Shown here: positions 27,001-30,000 of the stretch, piece by piece
Numbering within the stretch: the stretch's first letter is position 1
Layout of the letters: each line of letters begins with the position of its first letter
Source: Okamejei kenojei
Taxonomy: Eukaryota
Assembly (NCBI GenBank): GCA_035221665.1
Contig: CM069143.1
Location: 55,552,001 to 55,616,000 of the forward strand
Length of the DNA: 64,000 bases
Reading direction: 5' to 3'
Made by a program: the position numbers

Positions 27001-30000
27001 TCTTATTTGAATACATATTACAGTATATTAAAATGACTGCTTTTGTTGGTTTTAGGAAAGCAGAATAATATCTTCCTTTCCTGTGAAATAACTTGTCTTC
27101 ATTGAAACTAACAGCTAAGCCTTTATATCCCCAATATTCATCCTGTGCAGTTTGGTTGTAAGCTTGGAATCAATTTTAATGAAAGGATGAATTTAGAACA
27201 TTCAAAATTTGACTATTAAAGTATTCTTTCCAGTGTTCCTTCCAGTATTGAATTGCAGTGGCAGTCTAGGAATGTGAAGCTCTAAATATGTTGCATGTTT
27301 TCCTCTGCACTTTTATGTTTTTAGTTTTCTTATTCCATGTTCCTGTTTTGTGGAAATCATTCAAATATATTTAAATTGTGCAATGTTCATTTAGAATGGC
27401 AGTGCTTGGAATTTGTTTTAATTTTGTTTTTCTGCATCTATTCATTTTAGTGGGACTATCTGCAGTTGATTTCTCAAATCTTAAAGCAGGTATGTAATTT
27501 TTAAATTTCATATAATTTGCACCTCTTTAGTTGCTGAAATGATCCCAAAATAGAATTGTTGAATGGAGATAATAAATCAGTGCAATCGCAATCTCAAGAC
27601 AATATAATAGACTGCCTAATCTTATATAGAACAAAGTAATGTAAACCGGACTAGAAAAGAATGGGAACCTGCTTGAATTATAAGAGTTGATGGTGCAGGG
27701 ATCTGCATTTTGGGCAAGTAGCTGCCAGATGAATGGCAAATGTTATAATTAATTCTTCAGTCAATATTTTACTAAAACACTGTATTCGCCAGTCTCTACA
27801 AACCAGGTTCCGCAGCCACTTATGGGAATGAACAGACCCACTGTGAATACTAATGCACCACCACCTCAAGGTCCACCTGGAAGCCTGGGAAACCAAATGC
27901 CAGAAAACAACATTGGATTGGTAATGTATTAAATATGTTGCAAAATATAACTAACACGGTAGAATATAGATGTGGATATAAGAAGAATAGTAAGTGAACC
28001 TGAGCTTCCAGGAATATTTTTATTCTTTCAAGTGTTAGTAGGGGAAAGAATGTGGCTAAAATCAAACATTATATAGTTATGTTCGTTGGTGTGAGTTTGG
28101 TGAAGCTCTAACTATATTTGCAATATGTAGAGCATTTTGTTTAGTGCTTTAATTCTGGCAAGTTTTACTTAACCAACACATAACGTCAGTGTACTGATTC
28201 CTTTTCTTGTAGAAGAGGATTTTTTTTCCTTTACTAGATTTTCAGCCATGTCCTCAAAAAACTTTAAAGCTATGCCTTATTTTTGGTTTAGAGTGCTCGG
28301 ATAGATTATCTGACTTTGGCTCTTATCCTATAGTGATATTGTTGCCAATATTTCATAATTACGTGCTATTTTCAAAAATGTTCTCGTATATTGCACAATA
28401 ATTTATTCTGGGTTAATTCTATGTCAATGTGACATGGAATTATACAAGAGAAGAAAACCAGCAAGATTTAATATAGTATAGTCTCTAAAATGTCACTGCT
28501 TTCTTAATTCCAAGTTCTCACAGGAAAAATTGATCCGAACTCCATTACACCAGGCTTGCGTTGTAATGGTTATTAATCTATCGGTTTATACTAATTACAT
28601 TGAAAGCGGCGTATGCTTTTCTTTCGTGAATTTAGTAATACATTTCAAGATAGCTGTATGAAAGACACAAATTTCTGACCTCCCAGTTACTTTCTAAATG
28701 GCAAGTTGCCATTTGCGGAAGCAATTTATTTGTAAGGGCAATGCTTTTTCTTTAGCGGAAGAATGTTATTTCTTCATTAGCAGCTTTTAGTCTTGTTTTA
28801 ATATTCTGTAATACTTCTGATCTGATCAGATCATAAGGCTACTAGCTGATTTTCAATTTATCTATTGATCTCTAATTGCTTTCTGGAGTAAATAAGGATA
28901 AATTATGATGAGTCCCCTGCTAGACCAACATATGCATAACTTAATACCAGGTTCGGTAAACGTTTGAACTGGGTTTACACATAGTACCAAAATGAGATTG
29001 TGAATGGATAGAAAAATAAAAGAAAATCCAAAGGGAAAAGTTTGAATGCAGACTTCTGGAAATACTGAGGAAGTGGTTTGAGTTTAAATAGGTGAAAGTC
29101 AATTTCTCAAAATAAAATACTTACAGGGAATTATTCTTAATTTGTATTCCAGTTTTGCATTCCATTTATCCGGTTTCTTGTGGACTTAACTGTTTCAGGC
29201 TCCGTGATTATATTGAGAACGTTACTTCTTATGTATTCTTTTGACATGGATTTTGTTCCAATAAGATTATATACTATTGCCTGGTCTGTAATTCCATATA
29301 TTTCTTAATGCAGTTAAAACAGTTTCTGTGTATACTGTCACCTCTTTACATTGGATTTCTGTATCCACACTTGTAAAACTGACCGTTTAAGCTTGTAGAC
29401 TAAAATGACATGGTGGTGGTGGTGGTGTTGTATTCCAATCACCGAAAGGAGAAAGCACTTGTATTTGTGCTAAGCTTGTATAAGAATTTATTATGGAAAA
29501 ACTATGTGCAGAATGTGACTTAAAATCGATATGAGCTACATTGATACACTAATGTGCCTATAGCTTGCACATGGTCTCTATTCTGTGCAGTGTCTCAGGA
29601 GGTTAACTGTAAAATAATCCATAATTGGCAAGCAGGTACTAAACTTTGAGAGTTATACATTCAAAAGGCAATACCACTTAACTTAGTGTGGATATGCCAA
29701 ATCATTTATTTACACCCATAGTGAATAATGAGATATTGTACTGAAATAAATGGCACTAATGGGACGATGGATACCTATATCAGTTTTGATGGTGCTGTTA
29801 TACAAGGCTTTTGTGTCAACAATTGCAAAAACATTTTAGAAACTTAAAGCTCATATTGCCCAACAATCATTTTTTTAAGAAACTCCAGCCTACCTGACTT
29901 ATTGCCAAATCACTCATTCCATTCTTTGTCTGAAAGCTATTCGACATCGGAGTCTATTAGTACAATATTCGGATTATACGGTGTCCTGTGTAGCTTATTA

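What the first reader, a model, noticed from the sequence alone, without database searches (positions are those of the whole stretch)
27420..27496. Frame-preserving 39-nt cassette exon in the NONO low-complexity tail
Seen: strong splice sites, length divisible by 3, phase 1-1, no stop. It would add VGLSAVDFSNLKA (499 to 512 aa). A TGC lies ~16 nt upstream of the exon within the U-rich tract, and TGCATG lies at ~27292-27297. Known: UGC near the 3' splice site is the SRRM3/4 microexon signature, and TGCATG is the RBFOX site. No matching peptide exists in mammalian NONO as I recall it. Inference: a tissue-regulated (possibly neural) insert that could tune the disordered, condensate-forming C-terminus.
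Basis: partly seen in the sequence, partly recalled or inferred. Interest (0 to 1): 0.65.

Follow-up and report, generated by a model that had tools for sequence, protein, structure and literature searches.

The report
Conserved 39-nt NONO exon in skate
The 39-base segment is a genuine, already annotated coding exon of the NONO gene that cartilaginous fishes share and almost always include, so it is an ordinary exon and not a newly found brain-specific switch.

Summary
Window 27451-27489 is a 39-nt, phase 1-1, stop-free segment with an AG acceptor and a CAG|GTATGT donor. It lies between two tail exons of a NONO orthologue in a skate-like (non-human) genome and encodes VGLSAVDFSNLKA (499 to 512 aa).

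It is not a chance pseudo-exon. The same 13 residues, at the same junction, occur in 60 of 62 public NONO(-like) protein models from at least 22 cartilaginous-fish species. The peptide is identical in the skates Leucoraja and Amblyraja. It is 11/13 identical between whale shark and elephant shark, at least as conserved as the neighbouring tail exons.

The regulatory reading is weak. All 10 listed skate isoforms include the exon. Skipping is annotated only in Callorhinchus, where X1 and X2 differ by exactly these 13 residues. The TGC and TGCATG motifs are at chance level.

No bony-vertebrate NONO or PSPC1 in the hit list carries the peptide. Verdict: real, annotated, probably default-included exon. 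Interest is low.

The parts
23173..23227 (+). NONO tail exon upstream of the finding (RENMRLEEMAQRAGMAMP + first base of a split codon); donor CAG|GTGAGG
   Evidence: Sequence reading. 100% match to Leucoraja X1 residues 387-405 by tblastn.
24503..24589 (+). It is 87 nt from acceptor 24501-02, or 78 nt from the CAG acceptor at 24509-11 (exon start 24512). Phase 1-1, donor CAG|GTATGT. It encodes G(IPG)LAAPPVKLFQNSKNAGTDPTMENCP.
   Evidence: 100% match to Leucoraja X1 residues 405-433; present in 19 of 62 models, all from the 9 batoid species. Eight of the 9 batoid species also have a listed model without it (Narcine has only one listed), so it is annotated as alternative.
27292..27297 (+). TGCATG, 154 nt upstream of the exon
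   Evidence: Not above chance.
27402..27450 (+). AG-free, T-rich acceptor region. It holds a YTNAY branch-point candidate at 27418-22, TGC at 27433-35 and the acceptor AG at 27449-50.
   Evidence: Sequence reading. Weight-matrix score 0.30, mid-range among the gene's acceptors.
27451..27489 (+). The 39-nt exon of the finding, phase 1-1, encoding VGLSAVDFSNLKA
   Evidence: 13/13 identical to Leucoraja and Amblyraja models at the same junction. (60 of 62 models). (Callorhinchus X1 and X2 differ by exactly this unit).
27490..27495 (+). Donor GTATGT after GCAG
   Evidence: score 5.56, third best of the gene's donors; among the 10 best of 1750 GT.
27793..27920 (+). Next tail exon (V/STNQVPQPLMGMNRPTVNTNAPPPQGPPGSLGNQMPENNIGL)
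   Evidence: 100% match to Leucoraja X1 residues 447-489.
34175..34312 (+). Last coding exon, ending ...ANKRRRY plus TAA
   Evidence: 100% match to Leucoraja X1 residues 490-534.
3268..21769 (+). Coding exons 1-6 of the same gene (3268-3654, 12220-12521, 16915-17010, 17837-18033, 19661-19745, 21658-21769): RRM1, RRM2, NOPS and coiled coil
   Evidence: Pfam exon by exon: RRM_1 in exons 1 and 2, NOPS in exons 3 and 4. tblastn 88-100% to skate models.

Best explanation
Window 27451-27489 is a bona fide small coding exon of the NONO orthologue of a skate-like cartilaginous fish. It is spliced in by ordinary exon definition: a T-rich, AG-free acceptor region with a branch-point candidate about 29 nt upstream, and a strong CAG|GTATGT donor. 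By default it is included, adding 13 residues to the disordered tail between the coiled coil and the C-terminal KRRRY end.

The exon dates back at least to the common ancestor of chimaeras, sharks and rays and has been kept under purifying selection. Skipping is a minor or lineage-specific option, annotated only in the elephant shark. In rays and skates, the variable exon of this intron is the neighbouring 78/87-nt exon.

Shown: the anatomy, the conservation, and its presence in the annotated models. Inferred: default inclusion in this species, and any role of the 13 residues. My guess is a short hydrophobic/aromatic contact patch in an otherwise G/P/N/M-rich tail.
For: Gene identity:
- An exon-1 search gives cartilaginous-fish NONO(-like) models as the six best of 717 hits.
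- Pfam finds RRM_1 twice and NOPS, exon by exon.
- In a 34-row tree, cartilaginous-fish NONO-like is sister to bony-vertebrate NONO (99/97). PSPC1, with its own shark members, is separate (100/99).

Exon reality:
- The peptide sits at the same junction in 60 of 62 models that cover the region, from at least 22 species.
- tblastn of Leucoraja X1 places residues 434-446 on window 27450-27488 at 13/13 identity.
- Seven of 13 positions are invariant, and the other changes are conservative: S/T, A/V, D/E, F/Y, S/T/I, N/D.
- Between Rhincodon and Callorhinchus the exon is 11/13 identical, against 9/18, 33/43 and 35/44 for the three flanking tail exons.
- Callorhinchus X1 and X2 differ only by deletion of this unit, which fixes the exon borders.

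Default inclusion: 10 of 10 listed Amblyraja and Leucoraja isoforms include it.

Splice signals.

Not a repeat: self-blastn finds no second copy; the best other match is 25 nt at 84%, E 0.08.
Against: - The public models are computational predictions. I saw no reads, so 'default inclusion' rests on annotation.
- Only 64 of the 96 members of the six clusters were listed. Skipping isoforms of sharks or rays could be among the 32 unseen.
- AlphaFold2 on the Leucoraja protein gives pLDDT of about 35 and no secondary structure across the insert, so nothing supports a folded element.
- No orthologous genomic DNA was available. Intron conservation, the usual mark of regulated exons, is untested.
- The window's own species is not among the models: exon 1 is only 88-90% identical because of low-complexity length differences.
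Confidence: 0.85

Rival explanations
1. Tissue-regulated (for example neural) cassette exon in skates. The 499-aa skipped form would be the general isoform, with inclusion driven by SRRM3/4 through the upstream UGC and modulated by RBFOX through TGCATG.
For: The exon is frame-preserving, short and lies in a disordered tail. Skipping is annotated in Callorhinchus. TGC lies at -16 and TGCATG at -154.
Against: All 10 of 10 listed skate isoforms and 60 of 62 models overall include it. TGC precedes 32% of all AGs in the window, and 5 of the gene's 11 acceptors. TGCATG is at or below expectation, and there is none within 300 nt downstream. By the recalled RBFOX map, an upstream site would repress inclusion. 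39 nt exceeds the 3-27 nt microexon class (recalled).
Confidence: 0.12
2. Chance pseudo-exon: an intronic AG...GT pair that happens to be open and 3n, and is never spliced in.
For: Such decoys exist here. One equally scoring open 39-nt pair lies at 7607-7645 in intron 1.
Against: The peptide is conserved at the same junction across chimaera, sharks and rays. A neutral intron segment would not keep 11/13 residues and both splice sites over that distance.
Confidence: 0.01
3. Annotation artefact. The exon would be carried from species to species by homology-based gene prediction without transcript support.
For: All 62 models are predicted proteins, and I saw no reads.
Against: A homology-guided predictor can only place the exon where an open, spliceable, similar sequence exists in each genome, so the conservation is itself real. 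The window, which is not one of those assemblies, has it intact. One Callorhinchus entry with the exon (UniRef100_V9KHC0) belongs to a series that I recall as cDNA-derived; I did not check this.
Confidence: 0.02

Closest known systems
Annotated NONO(-like) models of the skates Leucoraja erinacea (e.g. XP_055499577.1, isoform X3) and Amblyraja radiata (e.g. XP_032886590.1, named there 'V-set and immunoglobulin domain-containing protein 4 isoform X6')
   Same: The 13-residue peptide is identical, at the same exon junction. All other exons are 97-100% identical, and the neighbouring 26/29-residue alternative exon is the same.
   Different: Exon 1 differs in the length of its His/Gln/Ala runs: 129 aa here against 122-123 aa, 88-90% identity. 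The window is therefore another skate or another haplotype. An alternative C-terminal end of some of those isoforms (HIMEQVNY...) was not found in the window.
Callorhinchus milii NONO isoforms X1 (XP_042201601.1) and X2 (XP_042201602.1)
   Same: The same exon is present, as VGLTAAEFINLKA (9/13 identical to the window). Here it is annotated as a true cassette: X1 and X2 differ only by it.
   Different: Skipping is annotated in this species only. It has no 78/87-nt batoid exon.
Neural microexons dependent on SRRM3/SRRM4 (properties recalled, not tested here)
   Same: Short, frame-preserving, in a disordered region of a nuclear RNA-binding protein, with a UGC between the pyrimidine tract and the 3' splice site.
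   Different: At 39 nt it is longer than the 3-27 nt class. It is included in nearly all annotated isoforms. The UGC is uninformative. There are no tissue data.
C-terminal tails of bony-vertebrate NONO and of PSPC1
   Same: The tails are homologous overall: a profile comparison of cartilaginous-fish NONO tails with PSPC1 tails gives probability 99.4% over 122 columns. Both share the ...PLMGMN... and ...NDRF... landmarks.
   Different: Bony-vertebrate NONO has a gap across the 13 residues and the start of the next exon. PSPC1 has about 10 unrelated-looking residues there (G-D-A-Y/F-S-P-A-P-A). Only 6 of the 13 columns align, so homology of the exon itself is undecided.

Membership tests
DBHS family (NONO/PSPC1/SFPQ), as defined in PMC4872119 (passages read) | Two tandem N-terminal RRMs | tested here: met
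   Pfam RRM_1 in exon 1 (E 2.5e-10) and exon 2 (E 9.2e-17), searched exon by exon.
DBHS family | NOPS domain after RRM2 | tested here: met
   Pfam NOPS is split over exon 3 (profile positions 1-28, E 9.7e-10) and exon 4 (positions 30-52, E 4.9e-11).
DBHS family | C-terminal coiled coil | tested here: met
   Exons 4-6 are 94-100% identical to skate models. AlphaFold2 of the Leucoraja model gives one helix over residues 269-378 with pLDDT up to 97. This was tested on the orthologue, not on a joined window model.
DBHS family | Nuclear localisation signal at the C-terminus | not testable with these tools
   The last exon ends ...ANKRRRY, as in the orthologues. Its function was not assayed.
NONO orthologue (versus PSPC1 or SFPQ) | Groups with NONO in a family tree, with separate PSPC1 orthologues in the same lineage | tested here: met
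   Tree of 34 proteins: cartilaginous-fish NONO-like plus bony NONO 99/97; PSPC1 including three shark/ray members 100/99; SFPQ 100/100. The window is represented by the Leucoraja and Amblyraja models, which its exons match.
Cassette (alternatively skipped) exon | Both inclusion and skipping products in the same species | tested here: not met
   For skates, 10 of 10 listed isoforms include it. It is met only for Callorhinchus: 3 models include it and 2 skip it. This is annotation only. There were no reads, and 32 of 96 cluster members went unseen.
Cassette exon | Frame preserved either way | tested here: met
   39 nt, phase 1-1, no stop.
SRRM3/4-dependent microexon (definition recalled) | Length 3-27 nt | tested here: not met
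   39 nt.
SRRM3/4-dependent microexon | UGC motif close to the 3' splice site, beyond chance | tested here: inconclusive
   It is present at -16, but 32% of all AGs in the window have one in -30..-5.
SRRM3/4-dependent microexon | Neural-specific inclusion | not testable with these tools
   No expression data were available.
RBFOX-regulated exon (map recalled) | (U)GCAUG near the exon, enriched or conserved, with downstream sites for activation | tested here: inconclusive
   There is one upstream site and none within 300 nt downstream. 9% of 300-nt windows hold TGCATG and 25% hold GCATG. The window-wide count is 40 against 49.9 expected. Conservation was not testable.
Intronic pseudo-exon (decoy) | No conservation of reading frame or peptide in other species | tested here: not met
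   The peptide is conserved in at least 22 species.

The most novel reading that the evidence does not exclude
The 13 residues are a specific binding or 'sticker' motif in the NONO tail. On this reading the motif was already present in the jawed-vertebrate ancestor (PSPC1 keeps residues at the same place), was lost from NONO of bony vertebrates, and is kept as a separate exon in cartilaginous fishes so that it can be dosed by splicing. It is skipped in chimaeras, doubled in the stingray Hypanus sabinus, and combined with a ray-specific Cys-containing neighbour exon. Tissue-specific skipping in skates, in tissues the annotations did not sample, would be part of this reading.
Probability: 0.15. 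Interest if true: 0.45.

Novelty: already known. Interest (0 to 1): 0.2.

Why it matters
As a discovery it matters little. The exon is already in the public protein models of the closest skates, with an identical peptide.

It has modest value for people who study DBHS or paraspeckle proteins. Cartilaginous fishes carry a strongly conserved, non-low-complexity 13-residue unit in the NONO tail that bony vertebrates lack. The same intron shows lineage-specific tinkering: optional in the elephant shark, duplicated in one stingray, and joined by a ray-specific alternative exon. That makes it a natural set of tail variants for testing what the disordered tail does.

For the scan the lesson is practical.

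Tried and rejected
- AlphaFold2 of the Leucoraja X3 protein with a 38-row alignment. The tail 397-505 has pLDDT below 50 and the insert about 35 with no helix, so my idea of an amphipathic helix found no support. Low confidence does not exclude folding on binding.
- Profile comparison of cartilaginous-fish NONO tails with PSPC1 tails. The tails are homologous, but the alignment inside the 13 residues is ambiguous, so 'ancestral exon' stays open.
- Self-blastn for a transposon origin found nothing.
- A search for the alternative C-terminal ends of related isoforms in the window found only weak or partial matches, at 28892-28936 and 60367-60441. The skate HIMEQVNY... end was not found.
- Pfam on eight long ORFs outside the gene found only one reverse-transcriptase fragment. 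My guess that ORF 3-338 is hAT-like was not confirmed.
- Literature: searches 'NONO'+'microexon' (52 papers, 10 listed), 'DBHS'+'NONO'+'PSPC1'+'low-complexity'+'C-terminal' (36 papers, 12 listed) and 'NONO'+'elephant shark' (45 papers, 8 listed). Nothing in the listed titles and abstracts concerns this exon. In PMC10620051 the 'nono' matches are words such as 'nonoverlapping' (passages).
- Not done: the spliced model of the window was never joined, translated or searched as one sequence. Searches were exon by exon, and full-length comparisons used public proteins.
- Not available: no collection of eukaryotic genomes or reads was on hand. Junction counts stayed unchecked. The closed collections (metagenome contigs, viral contigs) were not used, and supplementary files were not consulted.

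Full report
**What the window is**

The window has no N. It is not human: it carries the NONO orthologue of a skate-like cartilaginous fish.

Stop-to-stop reading frames on the + strand and direct reading of the exon borders give nine coding exons: 3268-3654, 12220-12521, 16915-17010, 17837-18033, 19661-19745, 21658-21769, 23173-23227, 27793-27920 and 34175-34309 (stop 34310-12).

Searched exon by exon, Pfam finds RRM_1 in exons 1 and 2 and NOPS split over exons 3 and 4. These are the defining DBHS domains (PMC4872119, passages).

A protein search with exon 1 alone returned 717 hits at E<=0.001 among 787 candidates. The six best are NONO(-like) models of Amblyraja, Narcine, Hemitrygon, Rhincodon, Pristiophorus and Callorhinchus.

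In a maximum-likelihood tree of 34 proteins, the cartilaginous-fish NONO-like group is sister to bony-vertebrate NONO (99/97). PSPC1, with three shark and ray members, forms its own group (100/99), and SFPQ another (100/100). So 'NONO' is the right label.

Full-length work used public proteins.

**The observation**

- acceptor AG at 27449-50 after a T-rich, AG-free stretch (27402-27448) with a YTNAY candidate at 27418-22
- exon 27451-27489 (39 nt), phase 1-1, no stop, reading VGLSAVDFSNLKA
- donor GCAG|GTATGT
- TGC at 27433-35
- TGCATG at 27292-97

I scored splice sites with a weight matrix built from recalled, approximate consensus frequencies. The donor is among the 10 best of 1750 GT in the gene span. 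The acceptor is within the best 190 of 1749 AG, mid-range among the gene's real acceptors.

In the eight introns (about 30 kb), 19 AG..GT pairs of 20-300 nt reach both scores. Seven are multiples of three and three are also open in the intron's phase. Those three are this exon, a second real exon at 24512-24589, and one decoy at 7607-7645. Splice signals alone are therefore suggestive but not decisive.

**The decisive evidence**

The six best hits all carry the peptide between the equivalents of exons 7 and 8. The other 114 listed hits do not match a loose pattern for it. Those 114 include bony-vertebrate NONO, PSPC1 and SFPQ; eight are unnamed records that only passed through the scan.

The six clusters hold 96 members, of which 64 were listed. 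Sixty-two cover the junction, and 60 of them contain the 13-residue unit. They come from at least 22 species: 9 rays and skates, 12 sharks, and the chimaera Callorhinchus.

Other points on the peptide:
- It is identical to the window in Leucoraja and Amblyraja.
- The commonest form, VGLTAADFTNLKA, is shared by 16 listed taxon entries.
- Seven positions never vary, and the rest change conservatively.
- tblastn of Leucoraja X1 against the window lays residues 434-446 on 27450-27488 at 13/13 identity, in line with all other exons.
- Between whale shark and elephant shark the unit is 11/13 identical. The three neighbouring tail exons are 9/18, 33/43 and 35/44.
- The segment has no second copy in the window.

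A chance pseudo-exon is excluded.

**Constitutive or alternative?**

The two models without the unit are both from Callorhinchus. Its isoforms X1 and X2 differ by exactly these 13 residues, so there the exon is annotated as a cassette.

In sharks and rays every listed model includes it. That covers all six Amblyraja isoforms (X1-X6) and all four Leucoraja isoforms (X1-X4). The shortest full-length skate models, 505 and 506 aa, correspond to the 512-aa inclusion form here, with shorter exon-1 repeats.

Caveats: these are predicted models, I saw no reads, and 32 cluster members were not listed.

**The regulatory motifs**

- A TGC in -30..-5 precedes 1218 of 3756 AG dinucleotides (32%). It also precedes 5 of the 11 acceptors of this gene, constitutive ones included.
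- TGCATG occurs 40 times on both strands against 49.9 expected. It falls in 9% of 300-nt windows of the gene.
- There is none within 300 nt downstream of the exon.

The motifs therefore add nothing. By the recalled RBFOX map, an upstream site would favour skipping. At 39 nt the exon is also outside the 3-27 nt microexon class (recalled definition).

The same intron holds a second exon, 24503-24589 (87 nt), or 24512-24589 (78 nt) from a CAG acceptor 9 nt further on. It is phase 1-1 with the same CAG|GTATGT donor and encodes G(IPG)LAAPPVKLFQNSKNAGTDPTMENCP.

It occurs in 19 of 62 models, all from the nine batoid species. Eight of those nine species also have a listed model without it; Narcine has only one listed model. 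This is the annotated alternative cassette of skates and rays.

Two TGCATG lie 191 and 249 nt upstream of it. This is a post-hoc observation.

**Origin and function**

A search restricted to residues 387-460 of the Leucoraja protein (exon 7, the unit and exon 8) found only five proteins at E<=10 among 15 candidates. All five are cartilaginous-fish NONO clusters.

In a 38-row alignment, bony-vertebrate NONO has a gap over the unit and the start of the next exon. PSPC1 has about ten different residues there. A profile comparison shows the tails are homologous (99.4%) but aligns only six of the 13 columns. Ancestral retention and cartilaginous-fish gain both remain open.

AlphaFold2 gives the whole tail, insert included, pLDDT of about 35 and no secondary structure. 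The tail of 119 residues is rich in N, G, P and M. The unit supplies one of its five aromatic residues (four F and one Y) and one of its two lysines.

My inference, untested, is a small hydrophobic/aromatic contact patch in a disordered tail. DBHS reviews say such tails mediate extra protein contacts and possibly phase separation (PMC4872119, passages).

**Verdict**

- Its portrayal as a regulated neural insert has no support, and the annotation of the nearest species speaks against it.
- The feature is already in public annotation.
- I found no paper on it in three searches (listings only).

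Noticed in passing
window 24503/24512-24589: A second small exon in the same intron (87 or 78 nt, two acceptors 9 nt apart). It is found only in batoids and is annotated as alternative in rays and skates. It encodes a 26/29-residue segment with a Cys.
   Followed up: yes
window 24254-24259 and 24312-24317: Two TGCATG lie within 250 nt upstream of the batoid alternative exon. About 0.1 would be expected per 300 nt. Noticed post hoc and not tested for conservation.
   Followed up: partly
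related proteins P0131 and P0133 (Hypanus sabinus isoforms X1 and X6): The 13-residue unit occurs twice in tandem (VGLTAADFSDLKA then VGLTAADYSNLKA). Isoforms X3 and X7 have one copy. This points to an exon duplication in this stingray, with both copies optional.
   Followed up: partly
window 28892-28936: A weak match (9/15 identical, E 0.004) to the alternative C-terminal end IRMNYDKFPTGPTSA seen in several shark NONO isoforms. It could be a conserved or decaying alternative last exon in the intron after 27920.
   Followed up: partly
window 60367-60441: A 68% match (E 8e-9) to the alternative C-terminal end of Hemitrygon isoform X3, 26 kb beyond the NONO stop codon. It could be a distant alternative 3' exon or read-through into another unit.
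   Followed up: no
related proteins of Amblyraja radiata (P0001, P0121, P0122 and others): The Amblyraja NONO orthologue is named 'V-set and immunoglobulin domain-containing protein 4' in the public record, although it has RRM and NOPS domains. Some isoforms carry a different C-terminal end (HIMEQVNY...) that I could not find in this window.
   Followed up: partly
window 3268-3654 (exon 1): The His/Gln/Ala runs are longer than in Leucoraja, Amblyraja and Rhinoraja: 129 aa against 120-123 aa, 88-90% identity. All other exons are 94-100% identical to the Leucoraja and Amblyraja models, and less so to Rhinoraja (77-100%).
   Followed up: partly
window 7607-7645: A 39-nt open, 3n AG..GT pair in intron 1 scores as well as the real exon. 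It matches none of the five public skate isoform models laid on the window, so it looks like a decoy.
   Followed up: partly
window 20147-20640 and 22378-22850: Two similar interspersed-repeat copies lie in introns 5 and 6; their translated frames are nearly identical. Short repeated frames of the type ...DAA.PAEFLQ.FV... also recur across the window.
   Followed up: no
window 58584-58934: A reverse-transcriptase fragment (Pfam RVT_1, E 5e-16), presumably part of a LINE remnant spanning about 57.9-59.6 kb. Seven other long ORFs outside the gene gave no Pfam match above the curated cut-off; one had a weak sub-threshold Hen1_N hit.
   Followed up: partly
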